Shown piece after piece: positions 31,525 through 52,500 of a DNA stretch of 64,000 bases. The stretch comes from Antedon mediterranea (taxonomy: Eukaryota; Animalia; Echinodermata): contig NC_092673.1 of NCBI RefSeq assembly GCF_964355755.1, forward strand, positions 16,402,948 through 16,466,947. Direction: 5' to 3'. The position numbers and the translations under genes are program-made. The number at the start of each line of letters is the position of its first letter. Position 1 is the first letter of the stretch. The notes under the pieces are model-generated. The model made no database searches. It had not been told where the DNA came from and worked only from the letters and a program-made list of their open reading frames with translations.

Positions 31525-32020
31525 GATAACATTGTATAACAGGAACTCAATAATCAAAACAAACAAATCATTAATAACAATGTTAATATTAAATCTATGG
31601 TAAAGATTATCTATAACAAATTATATAACAGGAACTCAATAACCAAAACAAATTAATCATTTAATAACAATGTTAATATTAAATCTATGGTAAAGATTAT
31701 CTATAACAAATTATATAACAGGAACTCAATAACCAAAACAAATTAATCATTAATAACAATGTTAATATTAAATCTATGGTAAAGATTATCTATAAACAAT
31801 TGTATAACAGGAACTCAATAACCAAAACAAATTAATCATTAATAACAATGTTAATATTAAATCTATGGTAAAGATTATCTATAAACAATTGTATAACAGG
31901 AACTCAATAACCAAAACAAATTAATCATTAATAACAATGTTAATATTAAATCTATGGTAAAGATTATCTATAAACAATTGTATAACAGGAACTCAATAAA
32001 CAAAACAAACAAATTATTAA
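31525..32020 (+). repeat. AT-rich tandem repeat, 89-90-bp unit, ~5.5 copies (continues 35204-35297)
   Basis: Units start near 31571, 31661, 31750, 31840 and 31929; a single ancestral monomer lies at 26900-26990. Confidence 0.9.
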
Positions 32021-35000
32021 TAGTAGAGCAGTTAATGACATGAGCTGTGCATTTTATTACCAAAGCATGAAACTTGGCACAAAGTTTCTTTAATGTATTT
32101 AGATTCAAAATATCGGGGGGTGCCAAGCGTCCAACGTCCGGTATGGCGGCCATCTTGATTTCAAAATGGCCACCATAAAAACAAAAAATGTTCATATCTT
32201 GGCAACTATACACATTAGAGACTTAATTATGGTCTCAAATTGTTCACAAACTATTCCTATTTGCTCTAATGAAGATTTTCGTCCAAAAATGACCGGAAAT
32301 GACGTTTCTTTCAGTTTGACCTTTGACCTTGTATTTGTATATCTCTGTAACTACTGGTCATTTTCAATCGATTTTGGTGTCATTTTGTTCAGAATAAATA
32401 TATTTATATTTGTAGTAATGAAACATTTTCACATAAAATGACCGGAAATACAATTTATGACCTTTGACATTTATTTATTGATTTTTAATTAGGTGAATAT
32501 ACTGTATGTGGTTTTTGTTGGTCTTTGAACTTTGACCTGATAGGCGTAATTATATTAAATGATTAATGGACTTAAATTGTATATAGTACATAAAATTGGT
32601 AAACATTGTGCTTGGTGGTACCATTAGTTCAATGATGTTGGCACCTTCTGATTCGCTAAAAGTTTTAATAGTTTGACAGAGGAAATAACATACATGTTAT
32701 GGAATACCGTAAAACCTCGAAAAGGTGATAGTATGAGCTTCTTTTCGAGATAGACTTTATTTGAATGTCAAATGAAAAGTATGATGATCGTGTTTATATC
32801 AATATATTATTAATGACCTTACAAAGAACCCTTTATATTTCAACAATCAAGCCTCAGTTATTCTACAATTTATTGTTTTCCAAGTGGTATTTTGATTGTA
32901 TCTTCTTTTTGTATGCTTCCTCGGTTAATATGGTCCTACTCCTCCTTCTTTGTCTGTATGGTCTTATACCCCATTCTTTGTCTGTGGATGGTCTTATACC
33001 CCATTCTTTGTCTGTGGATGGTCTTTTACCCCCTTCTTTGTCTGTGGATGGTCTTACACCCCCTTCTGTGCGTGTTGATGGTATTACACCCCTTTCTTTG
33101 TGTGTGGATGGTCTTACACCCCTTTCTTTGCATGTAGATGGTCTTCCACCCCTTCTTTGTCTGTGGATGGTCCTACACTTCCTTCTTTGTCTGTGGATGG
33201 TCCTACACCCCCTTCTTTGTCTGTGGATGGTCTTATACCCCCTTCTTTGTCTGTAAGTGGTCCTATACCCTTTCTTTGTCAGTGGATGGTCTTACACCCC
33301 CTTCTTTGTCTGTGGATGGTCCTACACCCCCTTCTTTGTCTGTGGAGGGTCCTACGCCCCCTTCTTTGTCTGTGGATGGTCTTACACCCCTTTCTTTGTC
33401 TGTGGACGGTATTATACCCCCTTCTGTGCCTGTTGATGGTATTACACCCTTAGCTTTGTCTGTTGATGGTATTACACCCTTTTCTTTGTCTGTTGATGGT
33501 ATTACACCCTTTTCTTTGTCTGTGGATGGTATTACACCTCTTTTTTTGTGTGTGGATGGTATTACACCCCTTTTTTGTGTGTGGATGGTCTTACACCTTT
33601 TTCTTTGTGTGTGGATGGTCTTACACCCCTTCTCTGTCTGTGGATGGTCTTACACCCCCTTCTTTCTCTGTCGATGGTCTTATACCCCTTCTTTGTCTGT
33701 GGATGGTCTTATACCCCCTTCTTTGTCTGTGGATGGTCCTACATCCCTTTCTTTGTCTGTGGATGGTCCTACACCCCCTTCTTTGTCTGTGGATGGTCCT
33801 ACACCACCTTCTTTGTCTGTGGATGGTCTTATACCCCCTTCTTTGTCTGTGGAGGGTCCTACGCCCCCTTCTTTGTCTGTAAGTGGTTCTATACCCCCTT
33901 CTTTGTCAGTGAATGGTCTTACACCCCCTTCTTTGTCTGTGGAGGGTTCTACGCCCCCTTCTTTGTCTGTGGATGGTCTTATACCCCCTTCTTTGTCTGT
34001 GGATGGTCTTATACCCCTTCTTTGTCTGTGGATGGTCTGGACCCACTACTTTGATTGATTAAATCAGACATTGTTTCTTGTATGATTAGGAGACCAAGAC
34101 CTTCAAAGTGAAAGTCCACAGGTGGATGCCTAAAAAGGTCTTGTACAGAACAGTATATTGTAGGTCCATGTCACTAATTTGAGGATTACTTGAATAATTA
34201 TATTGAGATGTCTTTTACGAATTGATTTGGTTCGGATTTTGCTAAAAAATCAATGACTAGAGAAAATCGAGGAAAAGGATTCAGATGGTTTACAGCAAAG
34301 GCTCATTACCATAAAAATTGAGTACATTTGTTTAGATGCAACGAAAATGACCAAGAATTATCTGAGTTTCTGACTAATGAAAGTAGGTCTACTGTAGTAA
34401 GTACTTTGAAAGACGGTGTTCTCTTAACTCATGAAAATGAGAACTTTCCGAACGAAAGAATGCTACTTTACATCAAAAATATTTCCAAATGGCATCTAAC
34501 AATTCAATTCAACTTTTATTTCAGACAATTGTCCATATGGTATAATACATTACAAAAAAAAAAGAAAAGATGAAGGAGAGAGGACCAAAACTTTTATATA
34601 ACGATTGACACATCACAGTTTAGCAAACAAGTCGGCATGAGCTCAGTGATTGCTGTTTCTCAGTGATCTGTCATACTTTACGCCTATCCTATCACATCAA
34701 AAGTCAAAAATTCAGAATAATAAATTCCTGGTCATTTTTGCATTAAGTGTCATTTATTTCGGTAAAACAAATTAGGTGCATTTATACCAATGTAAACCAC
34801 ATACAGTATGTTCACATAATTATATAGTCAAAGGTTATAAATTCGATTGAAAATGATCAGTAGTTACTGAGATATACAGATAAGAGGTCAAAGGTCAAAC
34901 TGGAAGAAACGTCATTTCCGGTCATTTTTTGCTCTTTTCATTAGAGCAAATAGAAATATGTGGTTTGTGAACAATTTAACACCAGAATCAAGTCTCTACT

Positions 35001-35203
35001 GTTTATAGTTGCCAAGATATGAACACTTTTTGTTTTTATGGTGGCCATTTTGAAATCAAGATGGCCGCCATACCGGACGTTGGACACTTGGCACCCCCCG
35101 ATATTTTGAATCTATATACATCAAAGAAACTTTGTGGCAAGTTTCATGCTTTGGTAATAAAGTGCACAACTTGGCTATTTTTATGGCCTTAACTGCTCTA
35201 CTA
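32021..35203. mobile_element. Non-autonomous Academ-type element
   Basis: TAGTAGAGCAGTTAA / TTAACTGCTCTACTA termini, several hundred bp of imperfect TIR, 3-bp TSD TAA. Confidence 0.85.
32930..34040 (+). repeat. 30-bp minisatellite (TGTGGATGGTCTTACACCCCCTTCTTTGTC), ~37 copies
   Basis: Seen directly; occasional 1-bp indels. Confidence 0.95.
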
Positions 35204-37140: not shown

Positions 37141-38277
37141 CAGAGGTCCCTGTAGCCCAAAAGAAGATAACATAAAATTTAAAATAAGACCAATTTTAAC
37201 AAATATAGTGGCCCACAAAAACCAAAGAAGAGAGCTCATCAACCAGATCTAACATGGGATACCACATAAGACAAAATTAAGGTATTGTGAATACCTGTTT
37301 TAACGCCTACTTAGTGTGTGAGGACTTGTATCAGAATGGATGATACAATTGCAGCAAATGCATAAAATGTCATTCAAACCAATTAGTTAATGATATGACT
37401 GGAAACCAAATTAATGATATGACTGGGAACCTACTTAAACAAATTAATTTGAAAAAATAAAAGTTACAGAGTTATTTGGCTAAAAAATATAATTGTTTAT
37501 AAACTAGAAATCTAGCTAGTCAACAGCAAAGTAAAAGATTAGGTCTGTTTTAGAATACAGTGTGTGGTATTATGTTTGGACACCAAATTTGTATGGGAAA
37601 TCTTTATAGCCTAAATAATTTTGGGGAATTAGAAGGTGATGATCCATGCAAACTGCAGAAGTTTAGAAGAAAATAAAGTGCAAAGGCTTTGCCACTATGG
37701 CTACGTTGAGAAACACCCTCATGACATTACCACTATGGCTACGTCGAAAAAAACTCTCATGACATTTTCTTTTATGCCGCAAGAGGCCAGACGGAAAAAT
37801 ACAATAGACACCAACTTGGATGGAAATTGTCATATTTATTTAAATGACGAAACACATAATAGCATATATAATAATAGAGTTGTAATAATGGGGCAGCCCA
37901 TAACTAATTTAGTTCCATCTAAGACGTATACATAATGTATGGGCTGCCCTATCAAGTGTACCGTATATGTACGGACAATAACTACTACTAACTAAACACC
38001 TTGGTTATTACATAAAATCACATAAATATATATTGAATGTTAAATATAATATGCATGGTTATCAAGAATCCAAAGATTAACTTGACTTACTAAACTAAAA
38101 CTAATTAAAATACAAGTTTGCTGGGTGAACATGCCACAAACCCGACAAACAAAGAGGGTTACCACCCAGACAAACAAACATAAAAAATATCTGAAGCTAA
38201 GCTTGACAGATAGGACCAACAGAAACAAACTTGTCTCGTGAGGCCAAGCTCGAACAATCCGAAACACGAAAGCGTTT

Positions 38278-39208
38278 CTATATGGAAAATGATTGGATTC
38301 TTATGTAATTTTGTACGGCCTTAGAATTCCATCGCCCAAATTGTTGTATAGTGTTCTCCGCTAAACCCAGGGAAGCAGCATGAGTTGCGGTGCCGATACG
38401 AAAACTATGACCTTTATATAATGTAGGGTCAAGACCAATGAAACAAATCGCCTCTTTTAGTTTTGCGTATATGAACCGAGCCGCAATCGGCCGACCGTCC
38501 ATATGTTGGAACAAAGGACCAGAGGTATGCCGAAAATGTTTGGTGTAATCTTGTAAACATTTTACTGGACAGAACCGAGCGCCCGTAGCACTATTGAATG
38601 AAATGTGGATAGGGGGCTTACCTACGCCGGTTTTGTGATGGTATATAGATAAGGACGCTGAATTACCAGAAAGACATAGCTTACTGCGTTGCACGACCTT
38701 CTTATCCGCGTCCCCTTTTCCTACGGCCAATTCACCAATCCGGAAGAACCCTTGGAACGCGGTAAGGAAAAAGGCCCTGAAAAGTAATCTATAAGAAAAA
38801 CTGGGTTCGATCGACTCTAGACACGCTAACAATTTAGTCAAAATTTCTGCAGTGATAGGCAAGCGTACCGTATCCGGACGATCCGAAGCATAATGCACGC
38901 CACGAAAAATTTTAACAACCAAAAACGAATTACAAGGATCGGGTAATTCTGCTAGTTTGTGTATAAAAGAGACGGACGAAATGATAGACGAAATTGTTCT
39001 AGGTGCATATTGTAGACATGTAAATGTGCCACAAATTTGCATACCGTAGCCGGGTTTACAGGGAGCTGAACGGGTTTTCCCAACCATGATGCCAACTTTT
39101 GAATATTGCGTTGATACGCCTTAACCGTGGCTGGCGCCAATGACGAGTGAATGAGTGTTGTAGCTTCACAGCTAAGGGGTACCATGTTGTTTGCAGAACA
39201 CACAACAC
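38278..39208 (-). CDS. Tyrosine recombinase, with one frameshift near 39020
   Basis: SSLAPATVKAY N-terminus, FFRIGEL (catalytic R), HHKT, GHSFRIGTAT, GRWNS..NYIR. The two ORFs join by a 1-nt indel at AHLH/LQYAP. Confidence 0.9.
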
Positions 39209-39223
39209 CTGTATAGGAATGAA

Positions 39224-41005
39224 TTAAATATAAATGTGGTAGGACGGAACATGAATTGGATTTGGACTGATAGAAGGAAAGGATTCCAGAGCCGCTGTAA
39301 ATTTTTTCCTTGATAAAAGATCCGCCAACACGTTATCTACTCCAGGAATATGCATTGCACGGAATTGTATGTTATACTGGAGGCATATAAGTACTAACCG
39401 CCGAATAAGACGCATAAGCGTTTTGTCTTTAGCAGATTTCTTATTGATAACAGCCACAACAGCTGAATTATCACAACGAAACAAAATGCGGCGATTAGCG
39501 AGCTCATGCCCCCATATTTCTAGGGCAATAACAATTGGAAATAACTCCAAAACAGCGATCGAAAAACCTACAAAGTCAGACCCCCAGTCGATGTAAAACC
39601 ATCTGTCGCAAAATACTGCGGTGCAACCAAAAGACGCAGCTGCATCGGAGAATAAGCGCAGTGTCCAAGAATTTAGCCATTTTTCTGGAAGGATAAGGGC
39701 TTTTCCATTAAAAGATTCAAGGAATGTTAGCCATATCCGCAAATCGTCCTTAACTCCATGAGTTAAGCAAATGAAATGAGATGGATGTTTAGCTAATGAC
39801 AGGAGGTTTATCATACGGCGTAAAAACGCCCTACCCGGCACTACCACACTACAAGCGTAATTAAGCAGGCCAACCATTGATTGCATATCGCGCAGTGTGA
39901 CTTTTTTTCTATTTAAAAATTCAGTTATTTTTGTTACAGTTTTTGTAATCTTAGGTAACGGGAGGCGACATTCCATCAAGACTGTGTCCACCTCAATCCC
40001 GTATATTGTAATGACATTAGTCGGAGTTACAGTCTTAGACGCCTTTATAGGAACCCCGATCTTGTCGCAAAGATATAAAAATTGAGACAGTGCGTTGTGG
40101 CAGTCATTAGAATCTTTTGGGCCGACGAAGAAAAAATCATCCAGAATATGGGATACATCCCTTACATTAAATTTATTACGCAGTATCCATACTAACGCTT
40201 TACTAAATGATTCGAAAATATTGCATGAGCGACTGGCGCCCATAGGCAGACACCGGCCATAAAAGAACCTGCCGTCCCAAGAAAACCCCAGCAAATGGTA
40301 ATCATCTGGGTGAATAGGGATAATTCTGAAGGCGTCTTCTATGTCGGTCTTAGACATTAATGCCCTAGGTCCATTTTTTAATACTAATCTAACTACATCA
40401 TCGATTGTGTCGTAGGAAACCTGTGAAACATCATGTGGAATCCCTGAGTTGACCGAAGCCCCCCGGGGGTACGACATGTCCTGGATAATGCGATATTTGC
40501 CTAATTCAGCTTTGGGAACAACACCCAATGGCGAGGAGATAAATTTATCAAACGGAGGGGACTCGAAAGGGCCAGCCAATCTACCGAGTCGTAAACCATT
40601 AGAAATAAATTCTTCTATCTGTATCGGGTGATCGAGGGCACTTGGATGGTTGCGGGCGATGCCCGAAACCGGGGGCTTTAAACAGAGGAGACGGAATCTA
40701 AACGAGAAACCGACTAACAATTCGTTAAACAATTCGTGTGTATACCCTGTTAAATACCTTGAAAGTTCATTTATTACCACTGGCGTTGGTAGATGGGTTT
40801 GCTCGAGTGCCGGTTTGACGACTTGTCGTTCGTGGTTTATTGCATTGAATTCTGGGGTGTGGTTGACGGCAGTCGGTACACAGATGTGAGAAGCGGCATG
40901 TGGGGGCGTGGCATTGCTTCCCAGCATTAAATTTGAAACATATCTGTTGGCCACAAAAATTATGCTGCCCCTGTGGACGAGAGTTAGGTCTGAAAGAAGA
41001 TACAT
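39224..41005 (-). CDS. Reverse transcriptase-RNase H (DIRS/Ngaro type), 593-aa ORF
   Basis: SPLGVVPK, YRIIQDMS, KTDIEDAFR, LPMG, HILDDFF; RNase H FSDAA, LELFPI, CDN, NVLADLLSR. Confidence 0.95.
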   Translation of the reverse strand: MYLLSDLTLVHRGSIIFVANRYVSNLMLGSNATPPHAASHICVPTAVNHTPEFNAINHERQVVKPALEQTHLPTPVVINELSRYLTGYTHELFNELLVGFSFRFRLLCLKPPVSGIARNHPSALDHPIQIEEFISNGLRLGRLAGPFESPPFDKFISSPLGVVPKAELGKYRIIQDMSYPRGASVNSGIPHDVSQVSYDTIDDVVRLVLKNGPRALMSKTDIEDAFRIIPIHPDDYHLLGFSWDGRFFYGRCLPMGASRSCNIFESFSKALVWILRNKFNVRDVSHILDDFFFVGPKDSNDCHNALSQFLYLCDKIGVPIKASKTVTPTNVITIYGIEVDTVLMECRLPLPKITKTVTKITEFLNRKKVTLRDMQSMVGLLNYACSVVVPGRAFLRRMINLLSLAKHPSHFICLTHGVKDDLRIWLTFLESFNGKALILPEKWLNSWTLRLFSDAAASFGCTAVFCDRWFYIDWGSDFVGFSIAVLELFPIVIALEIWGHELANRRILFRCDNSAVVAVINKKSAKDKTLMRLIRRLVLICLQYNIQFRAMHIPGVDNVLADLLSRKKFTAALESFPSISPNPIHVPSYHIYI

Positions 41006-41717
41006 TCCCTAACGAAGCCAGTTTTAACATAAGCTCTGGGTGAAGCACATCCCAATTTAAAGGCCTGCCCTGTCGTGCTTTGCGAAAACTTTCGTCATAG
41101 GTCCGCCAGTTCAGGTTCCCCAAAGCATGTAATTCTAGTATGTTGTTGACATATTTAAGCATAGGCAAACATTGAGCAGGCGATTTTTCAACAAATATGG
41201 ACACGTATATTGTAACTGCCCGCATCCATTCAGTAATTGTGATTAACTTTTTCTTACTGTTGTCTGTCTCTACACGGAGTTGTTTATCAATAATTGATAA
41301 CGAGACCCCAGTAGTATCATTGTCGTTATTGATCAGAGTCCTGAGGTCAATGTATCCATTTGCCCATATTTTATTTTTAACCGATAGTGGCACATTACTG
41401 CCCAGAGCAATCGAGTCAGTCATTGTTATGTCGGCCCGAGACGGCTCACCTTCAAAGAGATCGTTTACAAACGCGTCCAATGGCTGAGCCTGTGTGGCAT
41501 TATTCACAGTCAAGGATGTGGTAGCGGCTTGAGATGTTAGAAGACTGCCGCCTGGTGTCATGGGGCCAGTTGCCTCGCCCGCCTTCAATACCTTCGCAAC
41601 TTCAGCCGCCAGTTTGGCGTAGTCTAGTGGTGGGGTCTCTTTGTTCGCCGTTGCCTTCTTCCTAGTGGTTTTTGGGACCGCAGCCGACGCTGTACGGCCT
41701 CTTGGAGCTTTCGGCAT
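40767..41717 (-). CDS. Gag-like ORF, 316 aa
   Basis: KIWANGYIDLRTL, WRTYDESFR, and a C-terminal CFKFN..C...CRFSHLCTDC..H...C zinc finger typical of Ngaro/DIRS gag; overlaps the RT ORF. Confidence 0.9.
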   Translation of the reverse strand: MPKAPRGRTASAAVPKTTRKKATANKETPPLDYAKLAAEVAKVLKAGEATGPMTPGGSLLTSQAATTSLTVNNATQAQPLDAFVNDLFEGEPSRADITMTDSIALGSNVPLSVKNKIWANGYIDLRTLINNDNDTTGVSLSIIDKQLRVETDNSKKKLITITEWMRAVTIYVSIFVEKSPAQCLPMLKYVNNILELHALGNLNWRTYDESFRKARQGRPLNWDVLHPELMLKLASLGNVSSFRPNSRPQGQHNFCGQQICFKFNAGKQCHAPTCRFSHLCTDCRQPHPRIQCNKPRTTSRQTGTRANPSTNASGNK

Positions 41718-41864
41718 TTATACCTGTATAGAAATCAAAGAAACACCTCTGATGGTTAGAAATGAAAAACATGGTTGACACATTGACTACTGAAAAGCGG
41801 AGTTAAATTTGTAACAATCGTCCGGTTTCCATAGTATGTGCTATATCCATGGTCCGCCTGAAAT

Positions 41865-42776
41865 TCACCGGACTGAGAACAAGAGGATGTGTCCAAAGCC
41901 CGAATGCCACAAGGCAAACATTAGGCCCGAAGGCAAGCATAAGGCCCGAGGGCAAGCATAAGGCCCGAGGGCAAGCATAAGGCCCAAGGGCAAGCATAAG
42001 GCCCGAAGGCAAACATAAGGCCCGAAGGCAAACATAAGGCCCGAAGGCAAACACAGGGCCCGAAGGCAAACACAGGGCCCGAAGGCAAACATTAGTCCCG
42101 AAGGCCAAAATTCTTGCCCGAAGGCAAAATATGTGGAGTTTCTGAACCTCTTTATATAAATTGAAATTAAAACTACTGGCCTTAAAATTTTTTCTGCATG
42201 TAGAATAGCTTGTCGGACGCTACGTGCGTACCGATACATCCCTGACGATCGGCCATTTGAAGAACTTCTGTTAAGATGTACGCCATCGGCGTGAATATGG
42301 GACCAGTCGTTCCACAGGCCTCTGTGATGCCAATATGTTACACATGCATCATCGGCATAATTCACCTGAAGTCGACGGTTAATGTCCACAACAGAGTCGT
42401 TGAAGTTAGAGCTTACCCGACTGGGGTGCCGCTTTAACAGCTGGCTAACCACAATATGTTTACACTCCAGTCCAAATTTAAGGTAGTCAATTAAATTATC
42501 GAGTTTGTTCATAATAAAATCATTAGATCGTTTCACAATGTCATTCTCTCCTAGATGAACGTAAACGATATCTTTCGGCGTAGACCATCCCTTAAGCAGA
42601 TCAGGGAATTTGTATGCCGTTGCACCTCCGCGTGAATAATACTTGACATCGTTCAAACTTGCATCTAGGCGTAAAGCAAAGAATTCGCGTTCGCTGGTAT
42701 AGCATTCCAACCGGCGTACAAACGAGTGTCCAACAAGACCTATTCTACATGTCGGGAAGGCAATTTTGTAACACAA
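41865..42776 (-). CDS. SGNH/GDSL hydrolase ORF of the YR element
   Basis: Blocks GHSF, RGG, HLGENDI, DGVHLN; no ATG before block I; C-terminus reads through a 19-bp repeat. Confidence 0.85.
   Translation of the reverse strand: MCYKIAFPTCRIGLVGHSFVRRLECYTSEREFFALRLDASLNDVKYYSRGGATAYKFPDLLKGWSTPKDIVYVHLGENDIVKRSNDFIMNKLDNLIDYLKFGLECKHIVVSQLLKRHPSRVSSNFNDSVVDINRRLQVNYADDACVTYWHHRGLWNDWSHIHADGVHLNRSSSNGRSSGMYRYARSVRQAILHAEKILRPVVLISIYIKRFRNSTYFAFGQEFWPSGLMFAFGPCVCLRALCLPSGLMFAFGPYVCLRALCLPLGLMLALGPYACPRALCLPSGLMFALWHSGFGHILLFSVR
41898..42128 (-). repeat. 19-bp tandem repeat, 11-12 copies (sense TTATGTTTGCCTTCGGGCC)
   Basis: Seen directly. Confidence 0.95.
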
Positions 42777-42974
42777 ATTTTTGAATTAAACTTACACAAT
42801 GAGTGCACAAACTATTGTTTCTACTTACAATTGTTAAAAACCTTGTGAAATAAAGACACAAACACCTGTGCAGGTATAATCTTTAAAACGAAAATTCTTT
42901 AAATCTTTAAACACGTCTACTCCGGATGGATGCTAAAAGCGAAAGGACACATACACCACGCGGATGTATCAAAT

Positions 42975-43030
42975 TCCCCACGTTACCCGCCGCAGCCCAC
43001 CACGTGATGACGTAGAGCCCCGCCCTCCTG
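42975..43030 (-). promoter_or_regulatory. Candidate internal Pol II promoter of the YR element
   Basis: Clustered GC box (GGGCGG), CRE-like TGACGT and E-box CACGTG within ~70 bp of the 5' end; motif match only. Confidence 0.4.
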
Positions 43031-43589
43031 CGGCACAAATTCATCTTTCTACCCAGGCTCGAAAAATGTGTTTTAAGAAATTTAATTTCCTCATTGTAGA
43101 AACAAACCTATTTTGAGTAAGAAATAGGAAAATATGAAACTAGAGAACTAAAAGAGGATAAATTATGTGTTTACTAATTTTGCTCTAGATAACATACTCA
43201 ATTTTTGACAATTTCATAGCTACAACAATTTTTTGTCAGAAATTTTTCTTATGAAAGAAAGTACTGGAGTTGATCATGAATTATGTTTCATCCCAGAATC
43301 TTTTCAGCCAGGATTGTTTTTGTATTTGAGAAAAATGTTATGCAGATTTTCAACAAGCTTACATTGAAAAAAACAAGGGGTTTGATTATTATTAATGACT
43401 TGCTTTGTGTTTGTCTTATACTGTTTGCCTGTTTCCTCTAGATACAGGCAAACAAATCCTATCAAAATCATTAGGGCCTATCATTAGTTTAATATTATTT
43501 TTATTAACTTTGTATTTAAACAAAAGATAAAGTAAAAATCATCTGATTGTTTGAAACATGTATAAAGGTTATAGAAATGTTTGGTTATT

Positions 43590-46500
43590 ACTATATGATC
43601 CATTTATTACTAGACTAATATGCACTGCTTCCCCAGGGCTGTTAGTCAGGGTATTTGTGTGGGGTATTGTACTATTACTTTATGATCCATTTATTAATAG
43701 ACTAAAATGCACTGCTTCCCCAGGGCTGTTAGACAGGGTATTTGTGTGGGGGTATTGTACTACCTTACTTTATGATCCATTTATTAATAGACTAAAATGC
43801 ACTGCTTCCCAGCAGGGCTGTAATAGTCAGGGTATTTGTGTGGGGTATTGTACTGCCTTACTTTATGCTCCATTTATTAATAGACTAAAATGCACTGCTT
43901 CCCCAGGGCTGTTAGTCAGGGTATTTGTGTGGGGTATTGTACTACCTTACTTTATGATCCATTTATTAATAGACTAAAATGCACTTCTTCCCCAGGGCTG
44001 TTAGACAGGGTATTTGTGTGGGGTATTGTACTACCTTACTTTATGATCCATTTATTAATAGACTAAAATGCACTGCTTCCCCAGGGCTGTTAGACAGGGT
44101 ATTTGTGTGGGGTATTGTACTACCTTACTTTATGATCCATTTATTAATAGACTAAAATGCACTGCTTCCCCAGGGCTGTTAGTCAGTGTATTTGTGTGGG
44201 GTATTGTACTACCTTACTTTATGATCCATTTATTAATAGACTAAAATGCACTTCTTCCCTAGGGCTGTTAGTCAGGGTATTTGTGTGGGGTATTGTACTA
44301 CCTTACTTTATGATCCATTTATTAATAGACTAAAATGCATTGCTTCCCCAGGGCTGTTAGTCAGTGTATTTGTGTGGGGTATTGTACTACCTTACTTTAT
44401 GATCCATTTATTAATAGACTAAAATGCACTTCTTCTCCAGGGCTGTTAGTCAGGGTATTTGTGTGGGGTATTGTACTACCTTACTTTATGATCCATTTAT
44501 TAATAGACTAAAATGCACTGCTTCCCCAGGGCTGTTAGTCAGTGTATTTGTGTGGGGTATTGTACTACCTTACTTTATGATCCATTTATTAATAGACTAA
44601 AATGCACTTCTTCCCCAGGGCTGTTAGTCAGGGTATTTGTGTGGGGTATTGTACTACCTTACTTTATGATCCATTTATTAATAGACTAAAATGCATTGCT
44701 TCCCCAGAGCTGTTAGTCAGGGTATTTGTGTGGGGTATTGTACTACCTTACTTTATGATCCATTTATTAATAGACTAAAATGCACTGCTTCCCCAGGGCT
44801 GTTAGTCAGGGTATTTGTGTGGGGTATTGTACTACCTTACTTTATGATCCATTTATTAATAGACTAAAATGCACTGCTTCCCCAGGGCAGTTAGTCAGGG
44901 TATTTGTGTGGGGTATTGTACTACCTTACTTTATGATCCATTTATTAATAGACTAAAATGCACTTCTTCCCCGGGGCTGTTAGTCAGGGTATTTGTGTGG
45001 GGTATTGTACTACCTTACTTTATGATCCATTTATTAATAGACTAAAATGCACTGCTTTCCCAGGGCTGTTAGTCAGGGTATTTGTGTGGGGTATTGTACT
45101 ACCTTACTTTATGATCCATTTATTAATAGACTAAAATGCACTGCTTTCCCAGGGCTGTTAGTCAGGGTATTTGTGTGGGGTATTGTACTACCTTACTTTA
45201 TGATCCATTTATTAATAGACTAAAATGCACTGCTTCCCCAGGGCTGTTAGTCAGGGTATTTGTGTGGGGTATTGTACTACTTTACTTTATGATCCATTTA
45301 TTAATAGACTAAAATGCACTGCTTCCCCAGGGCTGTTAGTCAGGGTATTTGTGTGGGGTATTGTACTACCTTACTTTATGATCCATTTATTAATAGACTA
45401 AAATGCACTGCTTCCCCAGGGCTGTTAGTCAGGGTATTTGTGTGGGGTATTGTACTACCTTACTTTATGGTCCATTTATTAATAGACTAAAATGCACTGC
45501 TTCCCCAGGGCTGTTAGTCAGGGTATTTGTGTGGGGTATTGTACTACCTTACTTTATGATCCATTTATTAATAGACTAAAATGCACTGCTTCCCCAGGCC
45601 TGTTAGTCAGGGTATTTGTGTGGGGTATTGTACTACCTTACTTTATGATCCATTTATTAATAGACTAAAATGCACTGCTTCCCCAGGGCTGTTAGTCAGG
45701 GTATTTGTGTGGGGTATTGTACTATTACTTTATGATCCATTTATTAATAGACTAAAATGCACTGCTTCCCCAGGGCTGTTAGACAGGGTATTTGTGTGGG
45801 GGTATTGTACTACCTTACTGTATGATCCATTTATTAATAGACTAAAATGCACTGCTTCCCAGCAGGGCTGTAATAGTCAGGGTATTTGTGTGGGGTATTG
45901 TACTGCCTTACTTTATGCTCCATTTATTAATAGACTAAAATGCACTGCTTCCCCAGGGCTGTTAGTCAGGGTATTTGTGTGGGGTATTGTACTACTACCT
46001 TACTTTATGATCCATTTATTAATAGACTAAAATGCACTGCTTCCCCAGGGCTGTTAGTCAGGGTATTTGTGTGGGTATTGTACTACCTTACTTTATGATC
46101 CATTTATTAATAGACTAAAATGCACTGCTTCCCCAGGGCTGTTAGTCAGGGTATTTGTGTGGGGTATTGTACTACCTTACCTTATGATCCATTTATTAAT
46201 AGACTAAAATGCACTGCTTCCCCAGGGCTGTTGAGTCAGGGTATATGTGTGGGGTATTGTACTATCTTACTTTATGATCCATTTATTAATAGACTAAAAT
46301 GCACTGCTTCCCCAGGGCTGTTAGTCAGGGTATTTGTGTGGGGTATTGTACTACCTTACCTTATGATCCATTTATTAATAGACTAAAATGCACTGCTTCC
46401 CCAGGGCTGTTAGTCAGGGTATTTGTGTGGGGTATTGTACTACCTTACTTTATGATCCATTTATTAATAGACTAAAATGCACTGCTTCCCCAGGGCTGTT

Positions 46501-49500
46501 AGTCAGGGTATTTGTGTGGGGTATTGTACTACCTTACTTTATGATCCATTTATTAATAGACTAAAATGCACTGCTTCCCCAGGGCTGTTAGTCAGGGTAT
46601 TTGTGTGGGGTATTGTACTTCCTTACTTTATGATCCATTTATTAATAGACTAAAATGCACTGCTTCCCCAGGGCTGTTAGTCAGGGTATTTGTGTGGGGT
46701 ATTGTACTACCTTACTTTATGATCCATTTATTAATAGACTAAATGCACTGCTTCCCCAGGGCTGTTAGTCAGGGTATTTGTGTGGGATATTGTACTACCT
46801 TACTTTATGATCCATTTATTAATAGACTAAAATGCACTGCTTCCCCAGGGCTGTTGAGTCAGGGTATTTGTGTGGGGTATGGTACTACCTTACTTTATGA
46901 TCCATTTATTAATAGACTAAAATGCACTGCTTCCCCAGGGCTGTTAGTCAGGGTATTTGTGTGGGGTATTGTACTACCTTACTTTATGATCCATTTATTA
47001 ATAGACTAAAATGCACTGCTTCCCCAGGGCTGTTAGTCAGGGTATTTGTGTGGGGTATTGTACTACCTTACTTTATGATCCATTTATTAATAGACTAAAA
47101 TGCACTGCTTCCCCAGGGCTGTTAGTCAGGGTATTTGTGTGAGGTATTGTACTACCTTACTTTATGATCCATTTATTAATAGACTAAAATGCACTGCTTC
47201 CCCAGGGCTGTTAGTCAGGGTATTTGTGTGGGGTATTGTACTACCTTACTTTATGATCCATTTATTAATAGACTAAAATGCACTGCTTCCCCAGGGCTGT
47301 TAGTCAGGGTATTTGTGTGGGGTATTGTACTACCTTACTTTATGATCCATTTATTAATAGACTAAAATGCACTGCTTCCCCAGGGCTGTTAGTCAGGGTA
47401 TTTGTGTGGGGTATTGTACTACCTTACTTTATGATCCATTTATTAATAGACTAAAATGCACTGCTTCCCCAGGGCTGTTAGTCAGGGTATTTGTGTGGGG
47501 TATTGTACTTCCTTACTTTATGATCCATTTATTAATAGACTAAAATGCACTGCTTCCCCAGGGCTGTTAGTCAGGGTATTTGTGTGGGGTATTGTACTAC
47601 CTTACTTTATGATCCATTTATTAATAGACTAAATGCACTGCTTCCCCAGGGCTGTTAGTCAGGGTATTTGTGTGGGATATTGTACTACCTTACTTTATGA
47701 TCCATTTATTAATAGACTAAAATGCACTGCTTCCCCAGGGCTGTTGAGTCAGGGTATTTGTGTGGGGTATGGTACTACCTTACTTTATGATCCATTTATT
47801 AATAGACTAAAATGCACTGCTTCCCCAGGGCTGTTAGTCAGGGTATTTGTGTGGGATATTGTACTACCTTACTTTATGATCCATTTATTAATAGACTAAA
47901 ATGCACTGCTTCCCCAGGGCTGTTGAGTCAGGGTATTTGTGTGGGGTATGGTACTACCTTACTTTATGATCCATTTATTAATAGACTAAAATGCACTGCT
48001 TCCCCAGGGCTGTTAGTCAGGGTATTTGTGTGGGATATTGTACTACCTTACTTTATGATCCATTTATTAATAGACTAAAATGCACTGCTTCCCCAGGGCT
48101 GTTGAGTCAGGGTATTTGTGTGGGGTATTGTACTACCTTACTTTATGATCTATTTATTAATAGACTAAAATGCACTGCTTCCCAGCAGGGCTGTTAGACA
48201 GGGTATTTGTGTGGGGTATTGTACTACCTTACTTTATGATCCATTTATTAATAGACTAAATGCACTGCTTCCCCAGGGCTGTTAGTCAGGGTATTTGTGT
48301 GGGGTATTGTACTACCTTACTTTATGATCCATTTATTAATAGATTAAAATGCACTGCTTCCCCAGGGCTGTTAGTCAGGGTATTTGTGTGGGGTATTGTA
48401 CTACCTTACTTTATGATCCATTTATTAATAGACTAAAATGCACTGCTTCCCCAGGGCTGTTAGTCAGGGTATTTGTGTGGGGTATTGTACTACCTTACTT
48501 TATGGTCCATTTATTAATAGACTAAAATGCACTGCTTCCCCAGGGCTGTTAGACAGGGTATTTGTGTGGGGTATTGTAATACCTTACTTTATGATCCATT
48601 TATTAATAGACTAAAATGCACTGCTTCCCCAGGGCTGTTAGTCAGGGTATTTGTGTGGGGTATTGTACTACCTTACTTTATGATCCATTTATTAATAGAC
48701 TAAAATGCACTGCTTCCCCAGGGCTGTTAGACAGGGTATTTGTGTGGGGTATTGTAATACCTTACTTTATGATCCATTTATTAATAGACTAAAATGCACT
48801 GCTTCCCCAGGCCTGTTAGTCAGGGTATTTGTGTGGGGTATTGTACTACCTTACTTTATGATCCATTTATTAATAGACTAAAATGCACTTCTTCCCCAGG
48901 GCTGTTAGTCAGGGTATTTGTGTGGGGTATTGTACTACCTTACCTTATGATCCATTTATTAATAGACTAAAATGCACTGCTTCCCCAGGGCTGTTAGTCA
49001 GGGTATTTGTGTGGGGTATTGTACTACCTTACCTTATGATCCATTTATTAATAGACTAAAATGCACTGCTTCCCCAGGGCTGTTAGTCAGGGTATTTGTG
49101 TGGGATATTGTACTACCTTACTTTATGGTCCATTTATTAATAGACTAAAATGCACTGCTTCCCCAGGGCTGTTAGTCAGGGTATTTGTGTGGGGTATTGT
49201 ACTACCTTACTTTATGATCCATTTATTAATAGACTAAAATGCACTGCTTCCCCAGGGCTGTTAGTCAGGGTATTTGTGTGGGGTATTGTACTACCTTACC
49301 TTATGATCCATTTATTAATAGACTAAAATGCACTGCTTCCCCAGGGCTGTTAGTCAGGGTATTTGTGTGGGGTATTGTACTACCTTACCTTATGATCCAT
49401 TTATTAATAGACTAAAATGCACTGCTTCCCCAGGGCTGTTAGTCAGGGTATTTGTGTGGGATATTGTACTACCTTACTTTATGGTCCATTTATTAATAGA

Positions 49501-52500
49501 CTAAAATGCACTGCTTCCCCAGGGCTGTTAGTCAGGGTATTTGTGTGGGGTATTGTACTACCTTACCTTATGATCCATTTATTAATAGACTAAAATGCAC
49601 TGCTTCCCCAGGGCTGTTAGTCAGGGTATTTGTGTGGGGTATTGTACTACCTTACTTTATGATCCATTTATTAATAGACTAAAATGCACTGCTTCCCCAG
49701 GGCTGTTAGTCAGGGTATTTGTGTGGGGTATTGTACTACCTTACTTTATGATCCATTTATTAATAGACTAAAATGCACTGCTTCCCAGCAGGGCTGTTAG
49801 ACAGGGTATTTGTGTGGGGTATTGTACTACCTTACTTTATGATCCATTTATTAATAGACTAAATGCACTGCTTCCCCAGGGCTGTTAGTCAGGGTATTTG
49901 TGTGGGGTATTGTACTACCTTACTTTATGATCCATTTATTACTAGAGTAAAATGCACTGCTTCCCCAGGGCTGTTAGACAGGGTATTTGTGTGGGGGTAT
50001 TGTACTACCTTACTTTATGATCCATTTATTAATAGACTAAAATGCACTGCTTCCCCAGGGCTGTTAGTCAGGGTATTTGTGTGGGGTATTGTACTACCTT
50101 ACTTTATGATCCATTTATTAATAGACTAAAATGCACTGCTTCCCCAGGGCTGTTAGTCAGGGTATTTGTGTGGGGTATTGTACTACCTTACTTTATGATC
50201 CATTTATTAATAGACTAAAACGCACTGCTTCCCCAGGGCTGTTAGTCAGGGTATTTGTGTGGGGTATTGTACTACCTTACTTTATGATCCATTTATTAAT
50301 AGACTAAAATGCACTGCTTCCCCAGGGCTGTTAGTCAGGGTATTTGTGTGGGGTATTGTACTACCTTACTTTATGATCCATTTATTAATAGACTAAATGC
50401 ACTGCTTCCCCAGGGCTGTTAGTCAGGGTATTTGTGTGGGGTATTGTACTACCTTACTTTATGATCCATTTATTAATAGACTAAAATGCACTGCTTCCCC
50501 AGGGCTGTTAGTCAGGGTATTTGTGTGGGGTATTGTACTACCTTACTTTATGATCCATTTATTAATAGACTAAAATGCACTGCTTCCCCAGGGCTGTTGA
50601 GTCAGGGTATTTGTGTGTGGTATTGTACTGCCTTACTTTATGATCCATTTATTAATAGACTAAATGCACTGCTTCCCCAGGGCTGTTAGTCAGGGTATTT
50701 GTGTGGGGTATTGTACTACCTTACTTTATGATCCATTTATTAATAGACTAAATGCACTGCTTCCCCAGGGCTGTTAGTCAGGGTATTTGTGTGGGGTATT
50801 GTACTACCTTACTTTATGATCCATTTATTAATAGACTAAAATGCACTGCTTCCCAGCAGGGCTGTTAGACAGGGTATTTGTGTGGGGTATTGTACTACCT
50901 TACTTTATGATCCATTTATTAATAGACTAAATGCACTGCTTCCCCAGGGCTGTTAGTCAGGGTATTTGTGTGGGGTATTGTACTACCTTACTTTATGATC
51001 CATTTATTACTAGAGTAAAATGCACTGCTTCCCCAGGGCTGTTAGACAGGGTATTTGTGTGGGGGTATTGTACTACCTTACTTTATGATCCATTTATTAA
51101 TAGACTAAAATGCACTGCTTCCCCAGGGCTGTTAGTCAGGGTATTTGTGTGGGGTATTGTACTACCTTACTTTATGATCCATTTATTAATAGACTAAAAT
51201 GCACTGCTTCCCCAGGGCTGTTAGTCAGGGTATTTGTGTGGGGTATTGTACTACCTTACTTTATGATCCATTTATTAATAGACTAAAACGCACTGCTTCC
51301 CCAGGGCTGTTAGTCAGGGTATTTGTGTGGGGTATTGTACTACCTTACTTTATGATCCATTTATTAATAGACTAAAATGCACTGCTTCCCCAGGGCTGTT
51401 AGTCAGGGTATTTGTGTGGGGTATTGTACTACCTTACTTTATGATCCATTTATTAATAGACTAAATGCACTGCTTCCCCAGGGCTGTTAGTCAGGGTATT
51501 TGTGTGGGGTATTGTACTACCTTACTTTATGATCCATTTATTAATAGACTAAAATGCACTGCTTCCCCAGGGCTGTTAGTCAGGGTATTTGTGTGGGGTA
51601 TTGTACTACCTTACTTTATGATCCATTTATTAATAGACTAAAATGCACTGCTTCCCCAGGGCTGTTGAGTCAGGGTATTTGTGTGTGGTATTGTACTGCC
51701 TTACTTTATGATCCATTTATTAATAGACTAAATGCACTGCTTCCCCAGGGCTGTTAGTCAGGGTATTTGTGTGGGGTATTGTACTACCTTACTTTATGAT
51801 CCATTTATTAATAGACTAAATGCACTGCTTCCCCAGGGCTGTTAGTCAGGGTATTTGTGTGGGGTATTGTACTACCTTACTTTATGATCCATTTATTAAT
51901 AGACTAAAATGCACTGCTTCCCCAGGGCTGTTAGTCAGGGTATTTGTGTGGGGTATTGTATTACCTTACTTTATGATCCATTTATTAATAGACTAAAATG
52001 CACTGCTTCCCCAGGGCTGTTAGTCAGGGTATTTGTGTGGGGTATTGTACTACCTTACTTTATGATCCATTTATTAATAGACTAAAATGCACTGCTTCCC
52101 CAGGGCTGTTAGTCAGGGTATTTGTGTGGGGTATTGTACTACCTTACTTTATGGTCCATTTATTAATAGACTAAAATGCACTGCTTCCCCAGGGCTGTTA
52201 GTCAGGGTATTTGTGTGGGGTATTGTACTACCTTACTTTATGGTCCATTTATTAATAGACTAAAATGCACTGCTTCCCCAGGGCTGTTAGACAGGGTATT
52301 TGTGTGGGGTATTGCACTACCTTACTTTATGATCCATTTATTAATAGACTAAAATGCACTGCTTCCCCAGGGCTGTTAGACAGGGTATTTGTGTGGGGTA
52401 TTGTACTACCTTACTTTATGATCCATTTATTAATAGACTAAATGCACTGCTTCCCCAGGGCTGTTAGTCAGGGTATTTGTGTGGGGTATTGTACTACCTT

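What the first reader, a model, noticed from the sequence alone, without database searches (positions are those of the whole stretch)
39185..41724. YR retrotransposon appears to build Gag, RT and recombinase from one shared N-terminal exon by alternative splicing
Seen in sequence (minus strand): a consensus donor GAAG|GTGAGC inside gag (exon ends 41450, after codon 89 + 1 nt). An acceptor TATCTTCTTTCAG|AC (exon starts 40989) sits at the start of the RT ORF, and G+AC = Asp continues in the RT frame (DLTLVH). A second acceptor TTCATTCCTATACAG|GT (exon starts 39208) begins immediately after the RT stop codon, and G+GT = Gly continues in the YR frame (GVVCSANNMVP). A third acceptor, TTTCTTTGATTTCTATACAG|GT (exon starts 41723), lies 6 nt before the gag ATG and shares CTATACAG|GT with the YR acceptor. 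Inference: the element makes Gag (316 aa), Gag1-89::RT-RH (677 aa) and Gag1-89::YR. All three would carry the same basic N-terminus (MPKAPRGR..KTTRKK), a possible NLS or particle-targeting tag, with no frameshifting needed. Two acceptors matching the donor phase has a 1/9 chance at random, and each sits exactly at an ORF start. Splicing is known in Dictyostelium DIRS-1, but I do not know of a shared-exon scheme described for Ngaro-like elements.
Basis: partly seen in the sequence, partly recalled or inferred. Interest (0 to 1): 0.85.

Follow-up and report, generated by a model that had tools for sequence, protein, structure and literature searches.

The report
Ngaro retrotransposon: splicing plus ribosome slip
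This jumping gene and dozens of distant relatives keep matching signals suggesting that the DNA-inserting enzyme is likely made by splicing it onto the front of the structural protein, while the copying enzyme is likely made by a one-letter ribosome slip of the kind known from influenza, not by splicing; neither step has yet been seen in RNA or protein.

Summary
The three-way scheme holds only in part.

Gag-N::YR is well supported. In relatives the gag donor beats synonymous resampling (phase 1 in 31/37). An acceptor hidden in the RNase H codons is always the first CAG (42/42) and is in phase in 34/37 intact copies. Three RefSeq models join Gag-N to YR at this point.

Gag-N::RT is not supported as the general route; no phase-1 acceptor is conserved. 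Instead the gag/RT overlap (RT is +1) carries UUU_CGN, the PA-X/amalgavirus +1 frameshift motif, in 31/40 elements: 37 hits in the gag frame against 3 and 1 in the others. Other copies of this family have it; the window copy has lost it, and its YR is frameshifted.

No RNA holder was listed, so nothing is shown in transcripts. The scan has noted the Gag-YR splice before on other DNA; two look-ups found no note of the UUU_CGN slip. Print proposes -1 frameshifting for YR, which these data do not favour.

The parts
37770..43070 (-). Ngaro-like YR retrotransposon copy, 5301 bp, with TAAAA at both ends
   Evidence: Empty-site joints 37769>43071 in runs X2, X4, X5 and 37692>43071 in X1; end sequences
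42900..43070 (-). Repeat A (about 170 bp) of the split direct repeats
   Evidence: Contig joints end-to-start 43070>37770 (B-A, 4 of 4 runs) and 38135/42900 (A-B, 3 of 4 runs, one sample); inferred family structure A1-ORFs-B1-A2-B2
37770..38135 (-). Repeat B (about 366 bp) with a hairpin (37888-37952) and AATAAA at 37840; this copy has one A and one B only
41865..42785 (-). SGNH/GDSL hydrolase ORF upstream of gag; no in-frame ATG before the GHS motif in this copy
   Evidence: Pfam PF13472 E=5e-5, below the curated cut-off; upstream of gag in 17 clusters, downstream in 4, both in 1
41911..42128 (.). 19-bp tandem repeat, 11.4 copies, between hydrolase and gag
41724..41743 (-). Candidate acceptor 6 nt before the gag ATG; would skip the upstream hydrolase ORF; partner donor unknown
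40767..41717 (-). gag-like ORF, 316 aa, basic N-terminus and Cys/His-rich C-terminus
   Evidence: homologue P0001 58% identical; 19-38% to relatives
41450..41717 (-). Shared Gag N-terminal coding exon (89 codons + 1 nt)
   Evidence: matches the N-terminus of RefSeq Gag-N::YR model P0222 (E=2e-5)
41443..41453 (-). Phase-1 splice donor GAAG|GTGAGC
   Evidence: Best of 326; conserved in relatives; the X1 contig reads GTAAG, a Glu>Lys change that keeps the donor
40990..41005 (-). Candidate RT acceptor; real sequence, use doubtful
   Evidence: not conserved
40953..40958 (-). Predicted +1 frameshift site: TTT TGT in this copy, TTT CGT in all contigs of the three runs laid
   Evidence: place 40955; predicted beforehand in note
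39224..41008 (-). RT/RNase H ORF, +1 to gag, no methyltransferase domain
   Evidence: (PF00078 E=7e-8)
39308..39322 (-). RNase H 'DLLSR' codons where relatives hide the YR acceptor; the only one of 49 elements with an AGG Arg codon here
39209..39225 (-). Phase-1 YR acceptor, just behind the RT stop
   Evidence: other copies have a 2-nt insertion on the intron side that keeps CAG|GT
38278..39208 (-). Tyrosine recombinase coding region, broken by a frameshift near 39016 in this copy; motifs RIGEL (38748), HKT (38637), HSFR (38409), GRW (38337), Y-x-R (38307)

Best explanation
This is a damaged copy of a Ngaro retrotransposon whose family likely uses two different routes: splicing likely joins the first 89 Gag codons to the recombinase, skipping the rest of gag and RT, while a +1 ribosomal frameshift at UUU_CGN in the gag tail likely makes a Gag-RT/RNase H polyprotein from unspliced RNA. 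Shown in sequence: the sites, frames, repeats and their conservation. Inferred: the splice (about 0.85) would give a recombinase of about 400 aa with a basic Gag head. The slip (about 0.7) would give a minor product of about 830 aa (arithmetic from coordinates), with P-site tRNA-Phe re-pairing from UUU to UUC as in PA-X. The acceptor at 41723 probably lets gag be the first ORF by skipping the hydrolase (about 0.55). A role for the shared head in nuclear or particle targeting is untested.
For: Data: 94 loci plus the window, 56 clusters at 75% RT identity. DONOR: in 37 clusters with enough gag, the mean best donor 15-60 aa before the conserved Trp scores 3.58 bits against 0.36 +/- 0.37 (max 1.30) in 300 synonymous resamplings; two control windows show no excess; phase 1 in 31 of 37. 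YR ACCEPTOR: at the RNase H D-x-L/I-S-R motif, Ser is TCN in 49/49, Arg CGN in 48/49 and Gln CAG in 38/39, against 76%, 61% and 44% in the RT body. The one AGG is this element, whose acceptor lies behind the RT stop. The first AG after these codons is CAG in 42/42; it is phase 1 with the YR frame open in 34 of 37 intact copies; of those 34, 11 have no Met before the YR core and 9 have one only after 35 aa; the -1 frame is open in only 46 of 433 control windows. A -1 slippery heptamer occurs in 2 of 39 overlaps. RefSeq models XP_071947269.1, XP_022293072.1 and XP_056013930.1 are Gag-N joined to YR with no Gag core; the latter two align to a full Gag up to the Gly of the donor motif. RT SLIP: RT is +1 to gag in 40 of 44. 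TTTCGN occurs 37/3/1 times by frame and in 31 of 40 elements, against 6.5 (max 13) in 2000 codon shuffles. Phe-Arg pairs use TTT+CGN in 37 of 51 against 37% expected (P=3e-7), but not in upstream gag or the RT body (both P=0.07). The stop-to-motif distance is background (62 vs 48 nt) while stop-to-RT-core is 261 nt. The prediction that other copies carry the motif was met. Motif precedent: PMC3498833 (passages), PMC5052127 (abstract).
Against: No junction or peptide was observed. Clusters are related, so counts are not independent events. The splice matrices are rough and recalled. RefSeq models may be ab initio; their RNA support could not be seen. 9 of 40 elements lack TTTCGN, and four of them (L057, L060, L061, L094) have a phase-1 acceptor of 3.6-6.6 bits instead. 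Phe-Arg could be favoured for protein function in an Arg-rich tail, and codon choice in the overlap is not significant against upstream gag Phe-Arg pairs taken directly (37/51 vs 26/45; counts, not formally tested). In this family YR has its own ATG (39185). With the 2-nt insertion seen in other copies, the YR frame becomes RT+1, open from 39339, with an ATG at 39252 and TCC TTT CCT at 39283, so splicing is not obligatory here. 14 of 34 relatives have a Met within 35 aa of the acceptor. 6 of 37 best donors are phase 0.
Confidence: 0.62

Rival explanations
1. One reading: one Gag-N exon is spliced to both RT and YR, with no frameshifting.
For: The window's RT acceptor is the best AG in the 330 nt before the RT core, phase 1, 19 nt behind the RT-frame stop. 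Acceptors of 3 bits or more are phase 1 in 14 of 40 against 6 and 7 in the other phases. Some elements lacking UUU_CGN have one. Unchecked scan notes claim RT splicing in other genomes.
Against: The 14/6/7 split matches the background YAG phase bias (127:64:106), whereas YR gives 25/0/3 of 38. Positions are scattered. None of 120 listed RT homologues (of 750 found) has Gag-N without the core. It leaves the frame-specific UUU_CGN unexplained; the first AG after the motif is phase 1/0/2 in 16/11/10, so the motif is not a pyrimidine tract.
Confidence: 0.17
2. Published view: YR is made by programmed frameshifting in the RT/YR overlap or from its own ATG; the splice-like sites are by-products of protein conservation.
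For: Proposed by Poulter and Butler 2015, seen only as a quotation in PMC13003380. YR is -1 to RT in 37 of 39. This family has YR-frame ATGs and a UCC_UUU_C string in the RT tail.
Against: Canonical -1 heptamers in only 2 of 39. Synonymous bias at Gln (38/39 CAG) and at the gag donor is not explained by protein; part of the Ser/Arg bias could come from avoiding stops in the -1 frame. RefSeq Gag-N::YR models exist.
Confidence: 0.11
3. Mixed: YR is spliced, and RT is made by both the slip and a minor splice, or lineages switch between the two.
For: This family has both the motif and a good phase-1 RT acceptor. Motif-less L057, L060, L061 and L094 have such acceptors.
Against: Small numbers, not tested statistically. 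L060, L061 and L094 have variant TTT CCC or TTC CGN strings that might slip. Partly overlaps the best explanation.
Confidence: 0.25

Closest known systems
Ngaro superfamily of tyrosine-recombinase retrotransposons (order DIRS), e.g. Xenopus DIRS-53_XT (PMC9210276, passages)
   Same: Overlapping gag, RT/RNase H and YR ORFs; SGNH hydrolase ORF; no methyltransferase; split direct repeats at family level.
   Different: The hydrolase lies upstream of gag here and in 17 of 22 clusters where it was found; the paper places it after YR in amphibians. This copy has only one A and one B. No expression route is given in the passages seen.
Influenza PA-X and amalgavirus +1 frameshift sites (PMC3498833 passages; PMC5052127 abstract)
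   Same: UUU_CGN in the upstream frame at the start of a +1 overlap; CGU is the commonest A-site codon (22 of 37).
   Different: Found in a retrotransposon gag/pol overlap; the position turns over between families; the E-site UCC is not conserved. Not assayed.
Yeast Ty1/Ty3 +1 gag-pol frameshifting (named in PMC3498833; motifs recalled)
   Same: Gag-Pol by a +1 slip in a retrotransposon.
   Different: Different shift sequence. Ty integrase is part of Pol, whereas here the integrating enzyme would come from a separate spliced RNA.
Spliced subgenomic RNAs of retroelements such as foamy virus pol, Drosophila copia gag and retroviral env (recalled, no call)
   Same: Splicing used to reach a downstream ORF.
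   Different: Here a coding Gag N-terminal exon of about 90-200 aa would be fused to a tyrosine recombinase, with the acceptor hidden in RNase H codons in most relatives.

Membership tests
Ngaro retrotransposon | gag-like, RT/RNase H and YR ORFs in that order | tested here: met
Ngaro retrotransposon | No methyltransferase domain after RNase H | tested here: met
   RT ORF ends about 28 aa after DLLSR; no MT family in Pfam scans of it or two homologues
Ngaro retrotransposon | Split direct repeats A1-ORFs-B1-A2-B2 | tested here: met
   Met for the family through B-A and A-B contig joints and a 441-bp doubled block in L083; the window copy itself has no repeated A or B
Ngaro retrotransposon | RT groups with reference Ngaro elements in a tree | not tested
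   No named reference sequences were on hand; the tree holds only the fetched loci
DIRS-like (DIRS1) retrotransposon | Inverted terminal repeats with ICR, and an MT domain | tested here: not met
   No ITR or ICR match; no MT
PA-X/amalgavirus-type +1 frameshift | UUU_CGN in the zero frame with the +1 frame open downstream, conserved beyond protein needs | tested here: met
   absent from the window copy itself
PA-X/amalgavirus-type +1 frameshift | Measured +1 product | not testable with these tools
   Needs a reporter, ribosome profiling or mass spectrometry
Spliceosomal GT-AG intron (41449-39209) | Donor and acceptor consensus, matching phase, conserved | tested here: met
Spliceosomal GT-AG intron (41449-39209) | Junction seen in RNA | tested here: inconclusive
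   No RNA holder listed; the contigs laid look like DNA
Canonical -1 frameshift RT>YR | X_XXY_YYZ heptamer in the overlap | tested here: not met
   2 of 39

The most novel reading that the evidence does not exclude
Animal Ngaro retrotransposons run a three-protein programme from one gene block: Gag; Gag-RT by an influenza PA-X-type +1 slip at UUU_CGN, a motif so far described from RNA viruses; and Gag-N::recombinase by a splice whose acceptor is written into RNase H codons and can move when those codons change, as it has in this family. Some lineages may swap the slip for a second splice. This would replace the -1 frameshift proposed in print.
Probability: 0.55. Interest if true: 0.82.

Novelty: new variant of a known kind. 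Interest (0 to 1): 0.7.

Why it matters
How YR retrotransposons express RT and YR ORFs that overlap and often lack a start codon is unresolved; the only proposal found is frameshifting for YR. These results give exact, testable sites for both enzymes. They predict that the working recombinase carries a Gag head, which could explain why ORF1 has been linked to target-site choice in Cafeteria Ngaros (PMC8547959, passages). They would extend the UUU_CGN +1 slip to a widespread class of animal genomic elements, and they imply that current annotations of these RT and YR proteins start at the wrong place.

Tried and rejected
No whole genome was held. No RNA holder listed. X1 is only guessed to be RNA; it covers the flanks and holds an empty-site contig, so it is probably DNA. 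No joint at the predicted sites was shown (2 joints and 67 loose ends hidden) or (40880-41780); this counts neither for nor against. A CT..AC joint 38695-38932 in one DNA contig has a purine-rich acceptor and was set aside. Viral contigs gave no relatives. The representatives search never left the queue, and the YR homologue search was limited to 427 aa, so longer fusions were seen only through cluster members. UUU_CG as the pyrimidine tract of an RT acceptor: rejected. A conserved leader donor upstream of the hydrolase: not found (3 of 14 with shuffle p<0.05). Hydrolase as a spliced fusion: 15 of 18 clusters with a GxS match have their own Met. ITR/ICR structure: not found. Literature searches found no report of native splicing or UUU_CGN slippage in DIRS/Ngaro elements. 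Poulter and Butler 2015 is not held, Goodwin and Poulter 2004 and Repbase reports were not seen, and no supplements were read, so prior mention there cannot be excluded. Scan look-ups by sequence and for the slip were empty.
Full report
Observation. The donor (after 41450) and the acceptors (40989, 39208, 41723) are present as described. With a rough matrix recalled from the human consensus they rank 1 of 326 GT, and 7, 2 and 8 of 232 AG, on the element's minus strand. Gag1-89::RT is 677 aa. Gag1-89::YR ends at 174 aa because YR is split over two frames near 39016 in this copy.

What the element is. The ORFs are an SGNH hydrolase, gag, RT/RNase H and YR. The RT is 100% and 95% identical to proteins named from the crinoid Antedon mediterranea, with about 50% relatives in molluscs and cnidarians. 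Contigs of four public runs (two samples) fix the ends at 37770 and 43070 by empty-site joints. They also show an end-to-start joint (4 of 4 runs) and a joint from 42900 to 38135 (3 of 4 runs, one sample). These are the B-A and A-B junctions expected of A1-ORFs-B1-A2-B2, so the family has Ngaro split repeats and this copy has lost one AB unit (inference). There are no ITRs and no methyltransferase. The same contigs show an indel at the YR break, so the break looks private to this copy.

Comparative set. An RT alignment fetched 80 metagenome loci (the best of 364 confirmed) and 14 loci from bins. With the window they form 56 clusters at 75% RT identity. One member per cluster was used; subsets depend on contig length and intactness, as given below. 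The clusters are related (tree), so counts overstate independence.

Donor. The best GT in the whole gag ORF is phase 1 in 35 of 41 clusters; phase 2 is disfavoured anyway because GTAA/GTGA would put a stop in frame. In the 37 clusters with at least 65 aa before the conserved Trp, the best donor 15-60 aa upstream averages 3.58 bits against 0.36 +/- 0.37 in synonymous resampling; two downstream windows show no excess; 31 of 37 are phase 1. At protein level it is the Gly of a helix-G-E/T motif (FEGE in the window and in P0001). The X1 contig changes GTGAG to GTAAG, altering the residue and keeping the donor.

YR acceptor. In relatives it lies 69-102 nt before the RT stop in 41 of 42 (136 nt in L073), inside the RNase H D-x-L-S-R-x-Q codons. 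Ser is TCN in 49/49, Arg CGN in 48/49 and Gln CAG in 38/39, far above RT-body usage. The single AGG is the window's element, where the Gln is gone and a phase-1 acceptor sits behind the RT stop; the single CAA has a CAG two codons later. The first AG after the Ser-Arg codons is CAG in 42 of 42. It is phase 1 with YR open in 34 of the 37 whose YR frame reaches back to the RT stop; 5 broken copies were set aside. The upstream YR-frame stop is a median 25 nt away. Of the 34, 11 have no Met before the core, 9 a late one and 14 an early one. Only 2 of 39 overlaps have a -1 slippery heptamer, against the frameshift proposal quoted in PMC13003380. RefSeq models from A. mediterranea (382 aa), Crassostrea virginica (447 aa) and Ostrea edulis (462 aa) consist of Gag-N, one junction residue and YR, with no Gag core. 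Their RNA support is not visible here. A caveat for this family: YR has an ATG at 39185, and with the 2-nt insertion in other copies its frame runs back into the RT tail as RT+1, past an ATG and a UCC_UUU_CCU string.

RT. The best acceptor before the RT core is phase 1 and open in 18 of 44 clusters (P=0.18) at scattered places. Strong acceptors split 14/6/7 by phase 1/0/2 of 40, in line with background, against 25/0/3 of 38 for YR. No Gag-N::RT protein is among the 120 listed homologues; P0028 is a Gag-core::RT model. RT is +1 to gag in 40 of 44. In the 40 with an intact gag, TTTCGN occurs 37 times in the gag frame and 3 and 1 times in the others, in 31 elements, against 6.5 in codon shuffles. 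Phe-Arg pairs choose TTT+CGN in 37 of 51 (37% expected, P=3e-7) only in the overlap, and the RT frame is held open from the motif onward but not before it. The window has TTT TGT at 40958. I noted the prediction that other copies would carry the motif, and every contig laid there in three runs does. UUU_CGN is the +1 site of PA-X and amalgaviruses. That paper's non-shifting control, UUC_AGA, is the sequence at the window's proposed RT acceptor. Nine elements lack the motif; four of them have a phase-1 acceptor, so RT splicing in some lineages stays open.

Third acceptor. An acceptor of 2 bits or more lies within 30 nt of the likely gag ATG in 13 of 31 clusters (two rows have a wrongly picked internal Met and were kept) against 10% of 425 control windows. 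Because the hydrolase ORF is upstream, such a splice would make gag the first ORF (inference). No conserved leader donor was found.

Prior knowledge. Passages were read in PMC7192593, PMC9341512, PMC3783388, PMC3266345, PMC8547959, PMC9210276, PMC3498833, PMC5009743 (first 300,000 characters held), PMC6681497, PMC13003380 and PMC4157794, and the abstract of PMC5052127. None of these passages describes native splicing or UUU_CGN slippage in these elements. The key reviews were not available. Eight unchecked scan notes on other genomes report the Gag-YR splice, several also an RT or hydrolase splice. They were read after my tests and are not counted as support. Two look-ups for the slip were empty.

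Verdict. A real and conserved feature of a known superfamily. All mechanism steps rest on comparative sequence evidence and gene models; none was seen in RNA or protein.

Noticed in passing
window 31531-32022 and 43588-49996: 89-bp satellite arrays (5.5 and about 72 copies; two different units) near the element.
   Followed up: no
window 32043-35171: Long inverted arms (209 nt at 94%, plus 91 nt) around a 30-bp tandem array; looks like a non-autonomous DNA transposon.
   Followed up: no
window 37400-37769 and 43071-43400: The flanks are themselves multi-copy sequence in all runs, so the element is inserted in another repeat, with TAAAA at both junctions.
   Followed up: partly
window 42860-42880: A fourth acceptor-like string, ACCTGCACAG|GTGTT (exon start 42865), resembling the gag and YR acceptors, lies before the hydrolase ORF.
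   Followed up: partly
window 39283-39275: TCC TTT CCT in the RT frame; with the 2-nt insertion of other copies a +1 slip here would enter the YR frame. Not conserved in relatives.
   Followed up: partly
window 37888-37952: GC-rich hairpin (12-bp perfect arms) in repeat B near AATAAA; possible primer or packaging structure.
   Followed up: no
L083 1-9641: The contig repeats itself with a period of 7137 bp and has a doubled 441-bp block, consistent with B1-A2-B2 followed by A1 in a tandem or circular assembly.
   Followed up: partly
L081-L094: Animal-type Ngaro elements lie inside bacterial genome bins (Sedimenticola, Thiodiazotropha, Bacteroidales and others), probably host DNA binned by mistake.
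   Followed up: no
window 41601-42153 and 40696-42157: Contigs show internally deleted relatives of the element in both samples, without GT-AG ends.
   Followed up: no
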